This document shows positions 1 to 7,708 of a stretch of 7,708 bases of DNA, in pieces (position 1 is the first letter of the stretch; every line of letters starts with the position of its first letter). A model generated the notes under the pieces. The model made no database searches and had not been told where the DNA came from. It worked only from the letters and a program-made list of their open reading frames with translations. Position numbers and translations under genes: made by a program. Origin of the DNA: a virus (taxonomy: Duplodnaviria > Heunggongvirae > Uroviricota > Caudoviricetes). The stretch lies in IMG/VR virus record IMGVR_UViG_2663763413_000006. One strand, 5' to 3'.

Positions 1-296
1 GGGCCGGTAAAACCGGACTGATACAGCCACTTATCCGCAGCGTGCTGGACTCCGGGGGCTTTGCCGTGGTGTTCGACATGGGGGATGGCTACAAGTCCCT
101 GTGTGAGAACATGGGGGGCGTATATCTGGACGGTGAAACCCTGCGTTTTAACCCGTTTGCGAACATCACCGATATCGACCAGTCAGCGGAGCGTGTCCGT
201 GACCAGTTGTCAGTGATGGCCAGCCCCAACGGTAACCTGGATGAAGTGCATGAAGGTCTGCTGCTGCAGGCGGTCAGGGCCTCCTGGCTGGCCTGA
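1..296 (+). pseudogene. traC: Internal fragment of F-type conjugative transfer ATPase TraC (VirB4-family T4SS ATPase); 5' end outside window, stop TGA at 294-296
   Basis: Frame starting at nt 3 is open from the window edge and reads AGKTGLIQPLIRSVLDSGGFAVVFDMGDGYKSLCENMGGVYLDGETLRFNPFANITDIDQSAERVRDQLSVMASPNGNLDEVHEGLLLQAVRASWLA. The leading AGKT is the tail of a Walker A P-loop. The string matches my recollection of F-plasmid TraC, which continues past ...RASWLA; here a TGA follows immediately. Recognition is from memory, not a search. Confidence 0.7.
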
Positions 297-647
297 TCCT
301 TAACTGATCGGCATTACAGCCAGATGCTGGGCTTTATTGCCGAAAACTATGATCAGGCGCTGACCATCAACGATGTGGCTGAGCACGTCAAACTTAACGC
401 CAACTATGCAATGGGGATATTCCAGCGGGTCATGCAATTGACGATGAAACAGTACATTACCGCGATGCGCATCAACCACGTTCGCGCGTTACTGAGCGAT
501 ACCGATAAAAGTATTCTCGATATTGCCCTGACGGCAGGCTTTCGTTCGAGTAGCCGTTTTTACAGCACGTTCGGCAAATATGTCGGCATGTCGCCGCAAC
601 AATACCGCAAACTTAGCCAACAGCGCCGCCAGACGTTTCCCGGCTAA
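297..647 (+). pseudogene. melR: 3' portion of an AraC/XylS-family regulator (MelR-like C-terminal HTH DNA-binding domain); 5' part of the gene absent
   Basis: Same frame as the traC fragment. Translation SLTDRHYSQMLGFIAENYDQALTINDVAEHVKLNANYAMGIFQRVMQLTMKQYITAMRINHVRALLSDTDKSILDIALTAGFRSSSRFYSTFGKYVGMSPQQYRKLSQQRRQTFPG is a typical AraC-family tandem-HTH C-terminus. Position directly upstream of adiA matches the E. coli melR-adiA-adiY-adiC arrangement. Only about 115 codons are present, so the gene is 5'-truncated. Confidence 0.6.
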
Positions 648-842: not shown

Positions 843-3183
843 ATGATGAAAGTATTAATTGTTGAAAGCGAGTTTCTCCATCAAGACACCTGGGTCGGTA
901 ACGCCGTTGAGCGTCTGGCAGATGCTTTAAGCCAGCAAAATGTTACCGTGATTAAATCCACCTCCTTTGATGATGGTTTTGCCATTCTCTCTTCAAACGA
1001 AGCCATTGACTGCCTGATGTTCAGCTATCAAATGGAACATCCGGACGAACATCAAAACGTCAGACAATTGATCGGTAAGCTTCATGAGCGCCAACAAAAC
1101 GTGCCGGTCTTCCTGTTGGGCGATCGGGAAAAAGCCCTCGCCGCAATGGACCGGGATCTGCTGGAGCTTGTCGATGAATTCGCCTGGATTCTGGAAGATA
1201 CCGCCGACTTTATCGCCGGACGCGCCGTTGCCGCGATGACCCGCTACCGCCAGCAGCTATTGCCGCCACTGTTCAGCGCGCTGATGAAATATAGCGACAT
1301 CCATGAATATTCCTGGGCAGCGCCAGGCCACCAGGGCGGCGTTGGTTTTACCAAAACACCCGCCGGACGTTTCTACCATGACTATTATGGTGAAAATCTG
1401 TTCCGCACCGACATGGGTATCGAACGCACTTCCCTCGGTTCTTTGCTTGACCATACTGGCGCATTTGGCGAAAGCGAAAGATATGCCGCACGCGTATTTG
1501 GTGCCGATCGCTCCTGGTCGGTAGTCGTCGGTACTTCCGGCTCTAACCGCACCATCATGCAGGCTTGCATGACCGATAACGAGATAGTAGGTCGGTGACC
1601 GTAACTGCCAGAAATCCATCGAAAAAGCCATAAAGCCAACAAACAAGAAACCAGGCTAACAGGCGCGAAACCGGTCTACATGGTGCCAAGCCGCAACCGC
1701 TACGGCATTATCGGGCCAATCTATCCGCAGGAAATGCAACCTGAAACCTTGCAGAAGAAAATCAATGAAAGCCCGCTGACCAAAGACAAAGCCGGGCAAA
1801 AACCGTCTTACTGCGTGGTGACCAACTGCACCTATGACGGCGTGTGTTATAACGCTAAAGAAGCACAGGATCTGCTGGAAAAAACCTCCGATCGTCTGCA
1901 CTCTGACGAAGCACTGGTACGGCTATGAACGTTCCAACCCGATCCATGCCGATCACGAGCCATGCGACAGCTCTATGCCGATCAACCCGATCTATGCCGA
2001 TCACTATGCCATGCGCGGCGAACCTGGCGATCACAACGGTCCTACCGTTTTCGCCACCCACTCCACCCACAAACTGCTGAATGCGCTGTCACAGGCCTCT
2101 TATATTCATGTACGTGAAGGTCGTGGGGCGATTAACTTCTCCCGCTTCAACCAGGCCTACATGATGCATGCCACCACCTCCCCGCTGTATGCCATCTGCG
2201 CATCCAACGACGTGGCGGTGTCGATGATGGACGGCAACAGCGGCCTGTCACTGACCCAGGAAGTGATCGACGAAGCGGTTGATTTCCGTCAGGCGATGGC
2301 GCGGCTATATAAAGAGTTCACCGCTGACGGTAGCTGGTTCTTCAAACCGTGGAACAAAGAAGTCGTCACCGACCCACAAACCGGCAAAACCTATGACTTT
2401 GCTGACGCACCAACCAAACTGCTGACCACCGTTCAGGACTGCTGGGTCATGCATCCGGGCGAAAGCTGGCACGGCTTCAAAGATATTCCGGATAACTGGA
2501 GTATGCTCGACCCGATTAAAGTCAGCATCCTTGCTCCGGGAATGGGTGAAGATGGTGAACTGGAAGAAACCGGTGTTCCGGCGGCGCTGGTCACAGCCTG
2601 GCTTGGTCGCCACGGCATTGTGCCTACCCGTACCACTGACTTCCAGATTATGTTCCTGTTCTCTATGGGCGTGACCCGTGGGAAATGGGGGACTCTGGTT
2701 AACACCCTTTGCTCCTTCAAACGCCACTATGATGCCAACACACCGCTGGCGCAGGTGATGCCGGAACTTGTTGAACAATATCCTGACACTTACGCGAACA
2801 TGGGGATTCACGATCTGGGTGACACCATGTTTGCCTGGCTGAAAGAAAACAACCCTGGCGCACGGTTGAATGAAGCCTATTCCGGCCTACCGGTGGCGGA
2901 AATCACCCCGCGTGAAGCGTACAACGCGATTGTCGACAACAATGTCGAACTGGTATCCATTGAAAATCTGCCAGGACGTATCGCGGCAAACTCAGTTATC
3001 CCGTATCCGCCAGGAATCCCGATGCTGCTGTCTGGTGAAAACTTCGGCGATAAAAACAGTCCGCAAGTAAGTTATTTACGCTCGCTGCAATCCTGGGACC
3101 ATCATTTCCCTGGATTTGAACACGAAACAGAAGGGACAGAAATTATTGACGGTATTTACCACGTTATGTGTGTGAAAGCGTAA
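843..3183 (+). pseudogene. adiA: Biodegradative (acid-inducible) arginine decarboxylase AdiA, reading frame broken into three ORFs (843-1598, 1680-1928, 1834-3183)
   Basis: N-terminus MMKVLIVESEFLHQDTWVGNAVERLADALSQQNVTVIKSTSF... and C-terminus ...GTEIIDGIYHVMCVKA match E. coli AdiA as I recall it. In-frame stops TGA 1596-1598 and TAA 1602-1604 lie in a scrambled segment 1581-1658, after which frame 0 resumes (TGAKPVYMVPSRNRYG). A +1 shift near 1911-1916 moves the native reading to frame 1 (WYGY...). A 48-bp in-frame insertion at about 1936-1983 is a diverged partial copy of the following sequence. Confidence 0.85.
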
Positions 3184-3199
3184 CCACTATTCCGCTGAA

Positions 3200-3226
3200 G
3201 GCGTAATTGTTAAATAACATTACGCC
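3200..3226. other. 27-nt near-perfect palindrome (hairpin-capable) immediately downstream of the adiA stop
   Basis: ggcgtaat tgttaaataac attacgcc: 8-bp perfect outer stem (3200-3207 with 3219-3226), a further 4 bp after one mismatch. No T-run follows, so it is not a canonical intrinsic terminator. Confidence 0.4.
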
Positions 3227-3300
3227 GCCTGGCTTGAGGCCTTTTAAGTATGGCAACGTTTTCATAAAAATTGCTGCAAACAAAAAATGTCATGCTTTTT

Positions 3301-3328
3301 GCGCGGTCCCACCCCGCGCTTTTTTTTG
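3301..3328 (+). terminator. Rho-independent terminator between adiA and adiY
   Basis: GC-rich stem gcgcgg (3301-3306) pairing with ccgcgc (3314-3319), 7-nt loop tcccacc, followed directly by a run of 8 T (3320-3327). Confidence 0.6.
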
Positions 3329-3518
3329 CCTGTTATTTATCCTTTTTTTAGCCTGTAAAAAAATATGTACATGAGAAATTACTATAAAAATTTGTAATAT
3401 TAGTAAAACTCGTTATTTTTATGCATGTTTATATTCATCATACAATTATATAACCATTTCCCGGTATCGCTTCGCTTTAGCGAGAACTGGTCTTTTATTC
3501 GCACTCAGGAGTACATGT

Positions 3519-4443
3519 ATGAGGATTTGCAGCGACCAACCTTGTATTGTTTTATTGACTGAAAAAGATGTCTGGATAAGGGTGAATGGGAAAGAACCTA
3601 TTAGCCTTAAAGCTAACCACATGGCGTTATTAAATTGTGAAAATAATATTATCGACGTCTCCTCTCTTAATAACACTTTGGTTGCTCATATTAGTCACGA
3701 CATCATCAAAGATTACCTCCGGTTTCTGAATAAAGATCTCTCGCAAATACCAGTATGGCAACGTAGCGCTACGCCCATCCTCACCCTTCCATGCCTGACG
3801 CCAGACGTCTTTCGCGTTGCCGCGCAGCATAGCATGATGCCCGCTGAAACTGAGTCAGAAAAGGAACGAACACGTGCATTATTATTCACTGTGCTATCCC
3901 GTTTTCTCGACAGTAAAAAATTCCTTTCACTAATGATGTATATGTTTCACTAATGATGTATATGTTACGTAATTGTGTAAGTGACAGCGTTTATCAAATT
4001 GTGTAAGTGACAGCGTTTATCAAATTATTGAAAGCGAAATCCACAAAGACTGGAATCTTAGTATGCCAGCAAGAGACTGGAATCTTAGTATGGTAGCCAG
4101 TTTGGAATCTTAGTATGGTAGCCAGTTGATGATGTCTCAGCCCAAGTCTGTTAAAGAAAAAGCTGAAAAGCGAAAACACCAGTTATAGCCAAATAATCAC
4201 CACCTGCCGCATGCGTTATGCCGTAAATGAATTAATGATGGACGGTAAAAATATTTAATAATGGACGGTAAAAATATCTCTCAGGTACGCTAAAAATATC
4301 TCACAGGTATCACAGTCCTGCGGCTACAACAGTACGTCGTACTTTATTTCTGTCCTTAAAGACTTATACGGTATGACGCCGCTGCATAAGGTATGACGCC
4401 GCTGCATTATGTTAGTCAGCACAGAGAACGCACTGTCGCCTGA
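3519..4443 (+). pseudogene. adiY: AraC-family activator AdiY, disrupted by multiple short tandem duplications and in-frame stops
   Basis: ORF 3519-3953 reads MRICSDQPCIVLLTEKDVWIRVNGKEPISLKANHMALLNCENNIIDVSSLNN..., matching recalled E. coli AdiY, then terminates early at TAA 3951-3953 inside a duplicated segment. Downstream sequence still encodes AdiY-like peptides in shifting frames (e.g. [56 protein letters not shown]) up to the native-looking stop TGA 4441-4443. Good RBS aggag 8 nt upstream of the ATG. Confidence 0.8.
3925..4409 (+). repeat. Cluster of short direct tandem duplications inside adiY
   Basis: Read directly: tttcactaatgatgtatatg x2 (3925-3944, 3945-3964); attgtgtaagtgacagcgtttatcaa x2 (3972-3997, 3998-4023); gactggaatcttagtatg(gtagccagtt) in three overlapping copies (4048-4065, 4075-4102, 4103-4127); atggacggtaaaaatat x2 (4238-4254, 4261-4277) with a third partial copy near 4291-4310; ggtatgacgccgctgcat x2 (4370-4387, 4390-4407). 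Confidence 0.85.
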
Positions 4444-4579: not shown

Positions 4580-5163
<584 letters not shown>

Positions 5164-5164
5164 T

Positions 5165-5242
<78 letters not shown>

Positions 5243-5251
5243 TTGCAGATA

Positions 5252-5641
5252 TTACTCTTTTTTCTCCGTATCTGCATCGGGTTCATCAGCAAATAGCTTG
5301 CCCTGCATCCGATCCAGTTCTTCTTTTCTTACCCGCTTAACCACGCTGTAGACCCACTGAAGCGAAACACCAAATTTGCGGGCCAGTTCGTGGTGGTTGC
5401 GTCCGTTAAACTCCCTGAAGATTTCCCGGTCGCGCTGACTGACCTTCCATACCATGCCCATCGGGAAATAAACGTTTTGCCCGCCCCAGACCTGCATCAT
5501 TCGGTTCGCGACGGCCTGACCAATCTGGTCGGCAACTTCGGGCTCAATATCAATAATCTCGCGAACGGTCTCAGAGGTATGCTGTGCCAGTTCCACCAGG
5601 AGTTCCGGCCCCTTACTTCGAAACTGATTCAGGTCGCTCAT
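5252..5641 (-). CDS. mor: Mor-like middle-operon transcriptional activator (Mu gp17 family)
   Basis: 129 aa. C-terminal region ...GGQNVYFPMGMVWKVSQRDREIFREFNGRNHHELARKFGVSLQWVYSVVKRVRK resembles the conserved Mor/C-family HTH region of phage Mu Mor as I recall it (...FNGRN..EL...YG......VY...RR.R). Start overlaps the upstream gemA-like gene by 29 nt. Confidence 0.7.
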   Translation of the reverse strand: MSDLNQFRSKGPELLVELAQHTSETVREIIDIEPEVADQIGQAVANRMMQVWGGQNVYFPMGMVWKVSQRDREIFREFNGRNHHELARKFGVSLQWVYSVVKRVRKEELDRMQGKLFADEPDADTEKKE

Positions 5642-6062
5642 GTTTGACTCCCGCAGCTCTGCGCTGCCACTTCTTCAGTTTCTCAATAACACTGCTTGCC
5701 TGTTCAGTACTGAGCCAGCGCAGGGCGCTGATGCCCGTTTCCCGCTTGATCCACCTCGCTAATGCATTTTCTGAACGGTCACGAACAATGCCGGCAGCAG
5801 CCATTTCAAGCCATAGCGCACGAATTTTCCTGGACTGCGGATGGTTATCAAGCGGTAAACCGGAGCTGGCTTTTCTGGCTGGTTTAACGCGAAAGCCTTT
5901 CTTTTTCATGGATTCCAGCACGCAGTTTAGTTGTGTGGTATCCATTCCTTTGGTTGAGGCTTTACCGGTCAGCCCCTGTAACATCTGGCGGTAGGTGTCT
6001 TCATCCATACCCAGTTCATTACGGGCAATATGGATAAGCTGTATCAGGCGTTTTTTCTGCAT
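5613..6062 (-). CDS. gemA: GemA-like protein (Mu gp16 / DUF1018 family)
   Basis: 149 aa, MQKKRLIQLIHIARNELGMDEDTYRQMLQGLTGKASTKGMDTTQLNCVLESMKKKGFR...KIRALWLEMAAAG... matches the GemA family pattern recalled from Mu-like prophage annotations. Lies immediately upstream of mor as in phage Mu. RBS ggag upstream of ATG at 6062. Confidence 0.65.
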   Translation of the reverse strand: MQKKRLIQLIHIARNELGMDEDTYRQMLQGLTGKASTKGMDTTQLNCVLESMKKKGFRVKPARKASSGLPLDNHPQSRKIRALWLEMAAAGIVRDRSENALARWIKRETGISALRWLSTEQASSVIEKLKKWQRRAAGVKHERPESVSK

Positions 6063-6063
6063 A

Positions 6064-6270
6064 TCATCTCCTTTTTTTCAGTCTGTCGGCAACAATGTCG
6101 GTTGCAGCTGGCAGGGTGACTGGCCAGAACAACATGACGGCGGTCATGTACAGGATGTAATGCGCGGTGTCGTAGTGCCTGCCATAGCCCAGGGAACGAT
6201 GAAGTCTTGCGCTGCATGATCCTGCGTACATATACCAGAAAAGAAAACAGACAATGGTTTCAGTAGTCAT
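6064..6270 (-). CDS. Small hydrophobic (putative membrane) protein, 68 aa, unknown function
   Basis: Internal start of the 6064-6426 ORF: ATG at 6270-6268 preceded by ggagg about 10 nt upstream. MTTETIVCFLFWYMYAGSCSARLHRSLGYGRHYDTAHYILYMTAVMLFWPVTLPAATDIVADRLKKRR has two hydrophobic segments. Start overlaps the stop of the upstream gene; the stop is 1 nt from the gemA start. Confidence 0.4.
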   Translation of the reverse strand: MTTETIVCFLFWYMYAGSCSARLHRSLGYGRHYDTAHYILYMTAVMLFWPVTLPAATDIVADRLKKRR

Positions 6271-6490
6271 TCTGAATACCTCCCCATTCGATATGAATAT
6301 TACGGGCAGCAATGACAGGGTCGTTATTCCACCATGCACCTGACATGTATTTTTCAACCTGTTCGCGTCCGGCAATAACACCAATTGTGATCCCCGGCCT
6401 GACGTTCTTAAAAAAGGCGCGGGCAAAAAGGTATCTGGCAGATATTCGGCAGGCTTTTAATTTCCGGCTTTTACCTGATAGCGTAATCAT
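6260..6490 (-). CDS. Hypothetical phage protein, 76 aa
   Basis: ORF with ATG overlapping the TGA of the upstream DUF2786-like gene (ATGA at 6487-6490, minus strand), consistent with translational coupling in a phage operon. No family recognised. Confidence 0.4.
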   Translation of the reverse strand: MITLSGKSRKLKACRISARYLFARAFFKNVRPGITIGVIAGREQVEKYMSGAWWNNDPVIAARNIHIEWGGIQNDY

Positions 6491-7170
6491 CTGGCCTCCA
6501 GTTTCTGTTGTTCCTGCCCACTGACCGGGCGGTGCAGTCTGACGTTCTGCCCTTCACGAAACCCCGCATAGCGCGAGGCGTCGCCATTGCGGCTTCTTCC
6601 CGGTTTACGCGCCCTGGTGGTTTGCGTCTGCGGGTATTTATGTTCCAGCCACTGCTGCATCAGTTCACGCTCATCATCGGTCAGGGCAAAGGACTGTATT
6701 TCACTGATAACGGCCAGCACCCAGCCTTCGGCAAACTGGTCTCCACGGCTGGTGCGGGTGGCGGTTTTTATTCTTTTGTTCTGTGCACTGATATACTGCT
6801 GACGCGCCTTTTTCAGCTGACGGGCCAGCACTTCCCAGGTGTATGCAGCCAGTGCCGCACGTTCCCGGTTGCCGTAGAACCCCACAGACGGATGCGTGCC
6901 GGGGTGAATGATGGAGTTAACACCAAATACCTCGCGGATGATGTTCATCAGGCCCAGCATGTAGCGCGGTGGACGGAGACTGCCTGTCGGCCAGTAGTGA
7001 CTGATGGTTTCATCAATATCACTCATAGCAATGTCGGAATGTGTGATGCCGTGAACATCCATCAGTTTACGGGCTCGGCGCAGTGCCAGAGCGGCCTCGT
7101 GCGGGTTGCCGGATGCGGCCAGCGCCAGCAACTTTTTCAGTTTCTCAATGTGTTTATTCTGGTCTGTCAT
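6487..7170 (-). CDS. DUF2786-like phage protein (227 aa from ATG 7170; the six-frame ORF extends to 7206)
   Basis: N-terminus MTDQNKHIEKLKKLLALAASGNPHEAALALRRARKLMDVHG resembles the DUF2786 signature (EKI.KLLALA.S.N..EA..A...A..LM) common in prophage early regions. The ATG at 7170 overlaps the TGA of the upstream gene (ATGA) and has ggag about 11 nt upstream, so I prefer it over the 7206 start. Confidence 0.55.
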   Translation of the reverse strand: MTDQNKHIEKLKKLLALAASGNPHEAALALRRARKLMDVHGITHSDIAMSDIDETISHYWPTGSLRPPRYMLGLMNIIREVFGVNSIIHPGTHPSVGFYGNRERAALAAYTWEVLARQLKKARQQYISAQNKRIKTATRTSRGDQFAEGWVLAVISEIQSFALTDDERELMQQWLEHKYPQTQTTRARKPGRSRNGDASRYAGFREGQNVRLHRPVSGQEQQKLEAR

Positions 7171-7382
7171 TGTTCTGTATCTCCGGTATTTTTCTGCCGT
7201 TTCCATGCCCGGACAGCGTCGGACAGCTCTTTCAGGCTGTATGCTGCTTTAAGCTTTTCCCATAACCACTGTGTTGTTATGTGCATCAGCAGGGCAGCCA
7301 GGGCTGCCCCCGCACTGAGGCATGTCGCCAGGCCAGTAAGAATCAGTGTCCATGCGGTGATTTCCCTGAGTATGTCAGCCAT
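7167..7382 (-). CDS. Small putative membrane protein, 71 aa, unknown function
   Basis: MADILREITAWTLILTGLATCLSAGAALAALLMHITTQWLWEKLKAAYSLKELSDAVRAWKRQKNTGDTEQ has one clear hydrophobic helix. RBS gggagg 8 nt upstream of the ATG; stop overlaps the start of the downstream gene. Confidence 0.4.
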   Translation of the reverse strand: MADILREITAWTLILTGLATCLSAGAALAALLMHITTQWLWEKLKAAYSLKELSDAVRAWKRQKNTGDTEQ

Positions 7383-7396
7383 TGAATGCCTCCCGG

Positions 7397-7693
7397 TTAC
7401 TCGTTCGTGTAAATCACGCCCAGTCGTGCAGCCAGACGTTCCAGTTTTTTCTGTTTGTGGAAGTCAATCAGCCGGTCCATCCCCTGAAGGCGCAGTTGCT
7501 CTGTCATGATTTCCACGTCTGCCAGCTCTGCCGCGAGGTCACTTTCGCTGCCCTGTCCGTTCAGGTTGCGGGCGGCACTGGCCGCCAGTTCAGCGGCCTC
7601 TTCTGCCAGTTTCAGGGCCTGTGCGTCCGGCCCGAAACGCTGCAGGGCCAGACGGTAGAGGGCGGTGCGGGTGAGTTCGGTGTTTCGTGTCAT
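7397..7693 (-). CDS. Small MazG-like all-alpha nucleotide pyrophosphohydrolase-type protein, 98 aa (motif-based call)
   Basis: Contains E31-x3-E35 (LAEEAAELAAS), then 20 residues later E56-x2-D59 (AAELADVEIM), matching the MazG/HisE-type metal-binding signature E-x3-E ... E-x2-D. RBS gaggg upstream of ATG at 7693. Inferred from motif only. Confidence 0.5.
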   Translation of the reverse strand: MTRNTELTRTALYRLALQRFGPDAQALKLAEEAAELAASAARNLNGQGSESDLAAELADVEIMTEQLRLQGMDRLIDFHKQKKLERLAARLGVIYTNE

Positions 7694-7708
7694 GCCGCGC
7701 CCTCAGTG

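What the first reader, a model, noticed from the sequence alone, without database searches (positions are those of the whole stretch)
1899..1990. adiA lesion 2: +1 frameshift plus 48-bp in-frame insertion that is a diverged partial duplicate
Around 1911-1916 the native reading shifts from frame 0 to frame 1 (gca c tgg tac ggc...). Segment 1936-1983 (aacccgatccatgccgatcac...atgccgatc) is a diverged copy of the following native sequence aacccgatctatgccgatcac, giving NPIHADHEPCDSSMPI inserted before NPIYADHYAM. Neighbouring codons also differ from recalled AdiA (F to S, A to E).
Basis: partly seen in the sequence, partly recalled or inferred. Interest (0 to 1): 0.4.

Follow-up and report, generated by a model that had tools for sequence, protein, structure and literature searches.

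The report
Assembly artefact inside the adiA gene
The frameshift and 48-base insertion in the arginine decarboxylase gene are truly written in this deposited contig, but they are almost certainly stitching errors of a poor draft assembly, not a mutation carried by the bacterium.

Summary
Against functional adiA, the window has T>C at 1903 (F346S), +A at 1913 (frameshift), C>A at 1928 (A354E) and a 48-nt insertion (1934-1981) that is a diverged copy of the following native sequence. The biological reading is very probably wrong. The window is the whole 7,708-bp contig AOQJ01000101.1 of draft assembly GCA_000397385.1. It is a chimera: F-plasmid traC interior, a 24-nt stub of IS4, melR'-adiA-adiY-adiC', then a Mu-like prophage. 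Within the adi block it is 100% identical to E. coli D8 except in tight clusters. Every cluster in adiA and adiY is the same event: the sequence restarts 19-29 nt back, ten times, with errors only within about 70 nt of a restart. Lesion 2 is two restarts (29 + 19 nt) after an error-rich tail. Contigs of the same lineage share the adiC::prophage junction but lack lesion 2. The sister assembly AOQB01000082.1 has the native sequence there and its own private restarts (30, 21, 23, 27 nt) elsewhere. Independent re-assemblies of SRA reads have none of the window's adiY lesions. No complete E. coli genome or public contig carries the insertion. Verdict: not a real feature. The adiC::prophage insertion is real; melR::IS4 probably is.

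The parts
1..293 (+). Interior fragment of F-plasmid traC, 100% identical to many IncF plasmids. It is joined to unrelated DNA at 293/294 (chimeric join).
   Evidence: 100% over 1-293; no record continues past 293.
294..316 (.). Stub of the terminal inverted repeat of IS4 (TGATCCTTAACTGATCGGCATTA). The 1.4-kb body of IS4 is missing.
   Evidence: identical to the IS4 end next to melR in strain 7CC (L007) and to 6-19 IS4 copies per genome elsewhere.
317..647 (+). 3' part of melR, starting with the IS4 target duplication CAGCCAGATGCTG (317-329).
846..3183 (+). adiA (biodegradative arginine decarboxylase) as deposited. It is broken into ORFs 843-1598, 1680-1928 and 1834/1975-3183 by lesions 1 and 2, and is otherwise 100% identical to D8 and L019.
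1583..1658 (+). Lesion 1: error-rich tail, a restart 20 nt back after 1626, then an error-rich head. It introduces stop codons.
1903..1971 (+). Lesion 2, left piece tail. The native adiA sequence continues to D8 position 6250 but carries errors at 1903, 1913 (+A, the frameshift), 1928, 1934, 1945, 1957-58, 1967 and 1969, denser towards the break.
1972..1981 (+). Lesion 2, 10-nt fragment TCTATGCCGA, reached by a restart 29 nt back.
1982..3924 (+). Clean right piece, reached by a restart 19 nt back. It gives 1,943 nt (1982-3924; one search counts 1,963 between the breakpoints at 1981 and 3944) without a single difference from D8 and includes the PLP-lysine motif THSTHK.
3519..4443 (+). adiY as deposited, with seven restarts: after 3944 (20 nt), 3996 (26), 4065 (25), 4102 (25), 4254 (23), 4286 (22) and 4386 (20). 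The native gene is 762 nt.
   Evidence: these are absent from L019-L023.
4580..5090 (+). 5' part of adiC, with an error cluster at 5064-5080 (2 substitutions, +6 nt, 2 substitutions) just before the prophage junction.
   Evidence: (clean version P0041).
5089..7708 (-). Left end and early region of a Mu-like transposable prophage (Mor, GemA, DUF2786 and others). The terminus TGATTAGACTTGAG sits at 5089. This is a real insertion in adiC shared with L019-L024.

Best explanation
The 'lesion' is an assembly artefact. Contig AOQJ01000101.1 was produced by chaining short sequence pieces whose true overlaps of about 19-30 nt were not merged, so the overlapping bases were written twice. The ends of the pieces came from poorly supported, error-rich sequence. 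At repeats the chain jumped to a wrong neighbour. In lesion 2 the left piece reads native adiA through ...CATGCGCGGC, but its last 69 nt carry eight errors, including the extra A that shifts the frame. The sequence then restarts 29 nt back for 10 nt, then 19 nt back, and continues error-free. The result is a net +48 nt 'diverged duplicate' plus +1. The bacterium itself most probably has an intact adiA at this site. Shown: the anatomy of the restarts, their privacy to this contig, and the same signature in a sister assembly. Inferred: the exact software step and the low read coverage.
For: (1) The window is an entire 7,708-bp contig of draft GCA_000397385.1. Its odd truncated ORFs exist on that one contig only, from NCBI only, and not in any Logan or ENA assembly. 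(2) The contig is a chimera of three replicons, each 100% identical to known DNA. The joins lie at repeat boundaries: a 24-nt IS4 stub abuts the traC interior, and adiC abuts the exact prophage terminus. (3) In the adi block (4,746 nt) there is no difference from D8 or L019 outside the clusters. All ~37 mismatches lie within 68 nt of a restart (P about 4e-28 if spread uniformly). Natural alleles (L006, L007) instead show substitutions scattered every 60-100 nt. (4) All ten discontinuities in adiA and adiY are restarts of 19-29 nt (mean 22.9, sd 3.1). The restart model beats a colinear alignment everywhere, 145.5 against 46.5 for lesion 2. (5) Contigs of the same lineage share the adiC::prophage junction and prophage-end variant. 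L020 (AOQB01000082.1, same accession series) has the native sequence at lesion 2 and at every other window lesion, but has private restarts of 30, 21, 23 and 27 nt elsewhere and an IS4 stub with the IS4 body skipped. Logan re-assemblies of SRR653724, SRR653739 and SRR653745 cover adiY with zero differences. L019 has intact 756-aa adiA and 253-aa adiY. (6) The insertion is in none of 5,410 complete E. coli genomes that match this stretch, nor in GTDB representatives or JGI metagenomes.
Against: No reads were inspected, so lack of read support is inferred, not shown. I could not establish which SRA run belongs to this assembly, nor the assembler or coverage; no paper in the library cites the accession. 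None of the Logan contigs retrieved covers the lesion-2 site itself. Its absence in the lineage rests on L020 and L019. The restart lengths are not constant, so a simple 'k-1 overlap not trimmed' rule does not explain them exactly. No second, clean copy of the locus from the same assembly was found.
Confidence: 0.88

Rival explanations
1. Genuine pseudogenisation. In this isolate adiA suffered a replication-slippage duplication of about 48 nt plus a +1 frameshift and point mutations, as part of decay of an adi locus already disabled by the prophage in adiC.
For: adiC is really interrupted by a Mu-like prophage in this lineage, and melR is probably interrupted by IS4. Selection on adiA and adiY could therefore be relaxed. 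Real adiA frameshifts exist in other isolates, for example a 1-bp deletion in L006.
Against: The duplicate differs from its parent at about 8 of 37 positions, while 4.2 kb of surrounding sequence has zero private substitutions. Sister contigs with the same prophage junction lack the lesion. Ten such events in 4.7 kb, none shared with the sister isolate, would imply thousands genome-wide. The contig is chimeric at both ends of the block.
Confidence: 0.05
2. The chimera and stutters are real in a molecule but were made in the laboratory, for example as library-preparation or amplification chimeras, or from one error-prone long read partly corrected with short reads. The assembly software's stitching would then not be the cause.
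For: The contig starts and ends inside unique sequence and is only 7.7 kb, about the size of a single long read or clone. Errors cluster where correction would fail, as in AT-rich adiY.
Against: The joins fall exactly at repeat boundaries (IS4 end, prophage terminus), which is what graph-based assembly produces and random ligation does not. An independent 11.7-kb contig of the sister assembly has the same 21-30-nt restarts and the same skipped IS4, pointing to a systematic software step.
Confidence: 0.05
3. A real, locus-restricted burst of template switching (microhomology-mediated, break-induced-replication-like repair) created the multiple short restarts, the clustered mutations and the joins to plasmid and prophage DNA in one event.
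For: Such repair gives clustered mutations, short templated insertions and joins between replicons. The pattern of errors confined to breakpoints fits superficially.
Against: A sister isolate would need an independent burst in the same locus at different sites. Microhomology at the perfect duplications is only 1-4 nt. The traC join uses an IS4 stub exactly as a mis-traversed repeat would. The test for templating of the point changes from 48 nt upstream gave 5 of 8, which is not significant (with positions corrected by eye).
Confidence: 0.02

Closest known systems
Misassembly signatures of draft genomes: false short tandem duplications from unmerged overlaps, and chimeric joins at repeat boundaries
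   Same: The lesions are private to one assembly. The restarts have a narrow, k-mer-like length (19-30 nt). Errors are confined to piece ends. Repeats (IS4, prophage end) are skipped or mis-joined. A sister assembly of the series is affected at other sites.
   Different: The restart length is not one fixed value, and several piece ends carry many base errors. This is more than untrimmed k-1 overlaps. The responsible software step is not identified.
[quoted passage not shown]
   Same: The genes and their order are the same: melR-adiA-adiY-adiC. AdiA is the decarboxylase, AdiC the arginine/agmatine antiporter and AdiY the activator (PMC12826058, PMC8989999). In this lineage adiC is truly cut by a Mu-like prophage.
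   Different: Real lesions seen here are simple: a 1-bp deletion in adiA (L006), IS4 in melR (L007) and a prophage in adiC. They sit in a background of scattered substitutions or are shared by relatives. Lesion 2 is complex, unshared, and sits in a background of zero divergence.
Replication-slippage tandem duplication
   Same: A head-to-tail repeat of a short segment, in frame (48 nt), next to its parent copy.
   Different: Slippage gives identical copies that then diverge at the background rate. Here the copy is about 20% diverged with no background divergence. It resolves into two restarts (29 + 19 nt), and it is one of ten such events in 4.7 kb.

Membership tests
adiA, biodegradative arginine decarboxylase (Orn/Lys/Arg decarboxylase family, PLP-dependent) | Sequence identity to characterised AdiA over the full length | tested here: met
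   Outside the two lesions the gene is 100% identical to adiA of E. coli D8. That protein matches PDB 2VYC over residues 1-755 with E=0. Pfam finds OKR_DC_1_N, OKR_DC_1 and OKR_DC_1_C.
adiA, biodegradative arginine decarboxylase (Orn/Lys/Arg decarboxylase family, PLP-dependent) | Genomic context melR-adiA-adiY-adiC | tested here: met
   The order and orientation are the same as in D8.
adiA, biodegradative arginine decarboxylase (Orn/Lys/Arg decarboxylase family, PLP-dependent) | One uninterrupted ORF of 755/756 codons including the PLP-lysine motif | tested here: not met
   As deposited the gene is split into ORFs of 251, 82 and 402/449 aa. Lesion 2 lies at residues 346-360 of the major domain (140-589). 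The motif THSTHK is present downstream; assignment of the PLP lysine to K386 is from memory of the 2VYC paper and was not tested here.
Genuine pseudogene lesion (heritable mutation of the isolate) | Present in independent sequence data of the same strain or lineage | tested here: not met
   L020 (sister assembly) and L019 have the native sequence at the site. The odd ORFs occur on one NCBI contig only. Reads of the isolate itself were not available.
Genuine pseudogene lesion (heritable mutation of the isolate) | Divergence of the duplicate commensurate with divergence of the surrounding sequence | tested here: not met
   There are about 8 differences in the 37-nt copy against 0 private substitutions in about 4.2 kb around it. 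Clustering gives P about 4e-28.
Assembly artefact (unmerged overlaps or chimeric contig) | Same class of discontinuity recurs in the contig and in other contigs of the same submission series, at different positions | tested here: met
   There are ten restarts of 19-29 nt in the window and four of 21-30 nt in AOQB01000082.1, none shared.
Assembly artefact (unmerged overlaps or chimeric contig) | Chimeric joins located at repeat boundaries | tested here: met
   The traC interior joins a 24-nt IS4 end stub. In the sister contig the IS4 body is skipped between the two halves of melR.
Assembly artefact (unmerged overlaps or chimeric contig) | No read support for the lesion; low or abnormal coverage at the joints | not testable with these tools
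   Raw reads cannot be mapped here. The only indirect hint is that Logan re-assemblies of runs SRR6537xx give short (1.5-3.4 kb) but clean contigs over the locus.

The most novel reading that the evidence does not exclude
The restarts are real. A lineage-specific, locus-restricted mutational process, such as a stuttering, template-switching repair polymerase acting near a transposable prophage, would write 19-30-nt re-copies with error-rich tails into the disabled adi locus, independently in sister isolates.
Probability: 0.03. Interest if true: 0.6.

Novelty: not a real feature. Interest (0 to 1): 0.05.

Why it matters
The main value is as a caution. A convincing-looking 'decaying gene' with a frameshift and a diverged in-frame duplicate can be produced by assembly software. 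Its spurious ORFs (251-, 82-, 402-, 144- and 171-aa fragments) have already entered large protein collections. Pseudogene surveys of acid-resistance loci in E. coli and Shigella that use old draft assemblies would count adiA and adiY of this isolate as decayed, but only the prophage insertion in adiC (and probably IS4 in melR) is real. The simple diagnostic used here may be reusable for screening other drafts. It has three parts: zero background divergence, restarts of one narrow length class, and privacy to a single assembly.

Tried and rejected
(1) Natural decay by slippage followed by divergence. Rejected because the background is identical to D8 and L019 and the lesion is unshared. (2) Machine-generated or synthetic sequence. 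I considered this early because of the stutters and abrupt topic changes, and rejected it once the window proved to be a deposited NCBI contig. (3) Point changes at 1903, 1913 and 1928 templated from the imperfect repeat 48 nt upstream (family D4). With corrected positions only 5 of 8 errors match the upstream base, which is not significant, so I dropped it (plus reading). (4) The 24 nt at 294-317 as random filler. Wrong: it is the IS4 terminal repeat. (5) Looking for a second, clean copy of the locus in the same assembly through the 107-aa MelR' ORF. This was uninformative because that ORF arises in many unrelated broken melR contexts. (6) Checking whether the split adiA of another 2013 draft (AQBB01000157, L006) shows a restart. 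It does not; it is a plain 1-bp deletion. (7) Literature search for AOQJ and neighbouring accessions found no paper. (8) Rfam scan of the window found no family at gathering score.

Full report
**What is in the sequence**

The window carries the 3' part of melR, then adiA, adiY and the 5' part of adiC, in the order found in E. coli. I aligned it to E. coli D8 (locus L001). At the reported coordinates there is T>C at 1903 (F346S) and one extra A at 1913, which moves the native reading from frame 0 to frame +1. Frame 0 then stops at 1926-1928. There is also C>A at 1928 (A354E) and a 48-nt insertion at 1934-1981. In the shifted frame the text reads WYGYERSNPIHADHEPCDSSMPINPIYADHYAM, against native WYGYARFNPIYADHYAM. 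The repeat 1935-1956 / 1983-2004 is 21/22 identical at a spacing of 48, where about 3e-6 such pairs are expected by chance. The lesion lies at residues 346-360 of the major, PLP-binding domain (Pfam OKR_DC_1, residues 140-589). The gene is unambiguously adiA: PDB 2VYC matches at full length with E=0.

**The background does not look like decay**

Across the 4,746 nt of the adi block, the window is base-for-base identical to D8 and to L019 except in a few tight clusters. The longest clean stretches are about 1,950 and 1,265 nt. All ~37 mismatches lie within 68 nt of a discontinuity, which has a probability of about 4e-28 if they were spread uniformly. Natural adiA alleles from other strains (L006, L007) differ from D8 by substitutions scattered every 60-100 nt. 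A duplicate that is about 20% diverged from its parent cannot have aged inside a locus that has no private substitution at all.

**Anatomy of the lesions**

I used an alignment model that lets the window jump back on the reference.
- **Fit:** It fits every lesion far better than a colinear alignment, 145.5 against 46.5 for lesion 2.
- **Restart lengths:** A chain version resolves ten restarts in adiA and adiY. They are 20 nt (after 1626), 29 and 19 nt (after 1971 and 1981), and 20, 26, 25, 25, 23, 22 and 20 nt (in adiY). The mean is 22.9 with sd 3.1.
- **Lesion 2 in detail:** The left piece continues native adiA as far as ...CATGCGCGGC, but its last 69 nt carry eight errors that get denser towards the break. 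They sit at 1903, 1913, 1928, 1934, 1945, 1957-58, 1967 and 1969. A 10-nt fragment (TCTATGCCGA) follows. The clean right piece then starts at TCAACCCG and runs about 1,950 nt without error.
- **Consequence:** The '48-nt insertion' is the doubly written overlap, and the '+1 frameshift' is one of the errors of the tail.

**The contig is a chimera**

- **Left end:** Bases 1-293 are the interior of F-plasmid traC at 100% identity.
- **IS4 stub:** Bases 294-316 looked like filler but are the terminal inverted repeat of IS4. Strain 7CC has a complete IS4 in melR at exactly this site, with the same target duplication CAGCCAGATGCTG. In the window only about 24 nt of IS4 are present, abutted to traC.
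- **Right end:** adiC runs, through an error cluster at 5064-5080, to the exact terminus (TGATTAGACTTGAG, 5089) of a Mu-like transposable prophage. That prophage sits at different chromosomal sites in other genomes.

**Provenance**

The odd truncated proteins of the window (251-aa AdiA N-terminus, 82-aa fragment, 144-aa AdiY', 171-aa AdiC') are each on record from NCBI only, on a single contig of 7,708 bp. The window is the complete contig AOQJ01000101.1 of draft assembly GCA_000397385.1. No paper in the library cites this or neighbouring accessions.

**Relatives settle the question**

A 169-aa AdiC' (P0041) ends ...IPIVGIAVFD*. It is the clean version of the window's ...[12 protein letters not shown], and it occurs on 11 other contigs.
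- **L019** (40 kb) has the same adiC::prophage junction with intact melR (302 aa), adiA (756 aa) and adiY (253 aa).
- **L020** is AOQB01000082.1 of GCA_000397225.1, from the same accession series as the window.
- **L021-L024** are Logan re-assemblies of SRA runs SRR653724, SRR653739, SRR653745 and SRR653737.
- **One lineage:** The window and L020-L024 share the same three small differences from L019 at the prophage end, so they belong together.

L020 has the native sequence at lesion 2 and at every other lesion of the window. It carries its own private restarts: 30 nt inside adiA, and 21, 23 and 27 nt in the adiA-adiY spacer. At the melR site it jumps from the left half of melR to an ~18-nt IS4 stub to the right half, skipping the IS4 body. 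The Logan contigs that cover adiY (L021-L023) show none of the window's adiY lesions, and L022 and L023, the two that reach the adiA-adiY spacer, show none of L020's spacer lesions. The insertion is also absent from 5,410 complete E. coli genomes that match this stretch (no place at 99% or above; the best places span 122 nt of record for the 171-nt query). It is absent from GTDB species representatives and JGI metagenomes as well.

**Explanation**

The lesions are products of how these two drafts were assembled.
- **Unmerged overlaps (shown):** Pieces with short overlaps (about 19-30 nt) were concatenated rather than merged.
- **Error-rich ends (shown):** Poorly supported piece ends were kept in the consensus.
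- **Mis-traversed repeats (shown):** IS4 and the prophage end were skipped or joined to the wrong neighbour.
- **Inferred only:** That coverage was low and which program step did this. The short Logan contigs (1.5-3.4 kb) are the only hint about coverage.

A biological origin would need about two restarts per kb. These would have to arise independently in sister isolates that are otherwise identical, and genome-wide that rate would wreck most genes. I give the artefact explanation 0.88. The remainder is split between a wet-lab chimera or long-read artefact (0.05), a genuine mutation (0.05) and a real template-switching burst (0.02).

**What is real at this locus**

The Mu-like prophage insertion in adiC is shared by all relatives retrieved and is genuine. 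IS4 in melR is probably genuine in the AOQ-series lineage, since both drafts keep an IS4 end stub at the site that IS4 occupies in 7CC. L019 has an intact melR. This lineage has therefore very likely lost arginine-dependent acid resistance through adiC, while adiA and adiY are most likely intact.

**Leads that went nowhere**

- The idea that the point changes were templated from an imperfect repeat 48 nt upstream did not hold: 5 of 8 match, which is not significant.
- An early suspicion of synthetic sequence was dropped once the contig was identified.
- The 107-aa MelR' look-up was uninformative.
- Another 2013 draft's split adiA (L006) is a plain 1-bp deletion.
- Rfam found nothing in the window.

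Noticed in passing
window 5089-7708 (junction at 5088-5090); L019 6047-16051: A Mu-like transposable prophage is inserted in adiC after codon ~168. Its genes include an rve transposase, AAA_22 ATPase, Gam, GemA and Mor, with the early genes transcribed towards the end next to adiC. The junction is clean and identical on 11 other contigs, so this is a real insertion that should abolish the arginine/agmatine antiporter in this lineage. The same element end lies next to ycaL or inside a lambdoid prophage in other genomes.
   Followed up: partly
window 294-329; L007 1586-3034; L020 1500-1520: IS4 occupies the same site in melR (target duplication CAGCCAGATGCTG) in the unrelated strain 7CC. It has left end stubs at that site in both AOQ-series drafts. 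This suggests a recurrent IS4 target in melR, or shared ancestry of the insertion.
   Followed up: partly
window 1-293 / 294: The interior of F-plasmid traC is joined directly to the last ~24 nt of IS4. No complete E. coli plasmid or chromosome continues across this join (best coverage 1-293), so it is a chimeric join.
   Followed up: yes
window 1583-1658: adiA 'lesion 1' consists of six errors in the tail, a restart 20 nt back after 1626, and ten errors in the next 32 nt. Many of these are changes to A, giving an A-rich 'babble' (AAAGCCAACAAACAAGAAACCAG). It is the same artefact class as lesion 2.
   Followed up: yes
window 3925-4390 (adiY): There are seven restarts within 470 nt of AT-rich adiY, including perfect 20- and 26-nt tandem duplications and a triple copy of TGGAATCTTAGTATG. 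All are absent from L019-L023.
   Followed up: yes
L020 (AOQB01000082.1) 2873, 4503, 4532, 4597, 1500-1520: The sister draft GCA_000397225.1 has its own restarts (30, 21, 23, 27 nt) and a skipped IS4. Its adiA is split 314 + 466 aa by a 29-nt false duplication. Both assemblies of this series appear systematically affected, and their proteins are in public protein collections.
   Followed up: partly
L019 6054-6067 versus window 5098-5105: The prophage end comes in two variants 10-20 nt inside the terminus: T/C, a 6-nt GGTTCC indel and a 1-nt indel. One variant is in L019 and the other in the window and L020-L024, which could affect transposase-binding sites.
   Followed up: no
L006 (AQBB01000157.1, E. 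coli P0304816.4) 3822: adiA of this unrelated 2013 draft is split 304 + 461 aa by a single-base deletion (G). I did not determine whether this is a real frameshift or a base-calling error.
   Followed up: no
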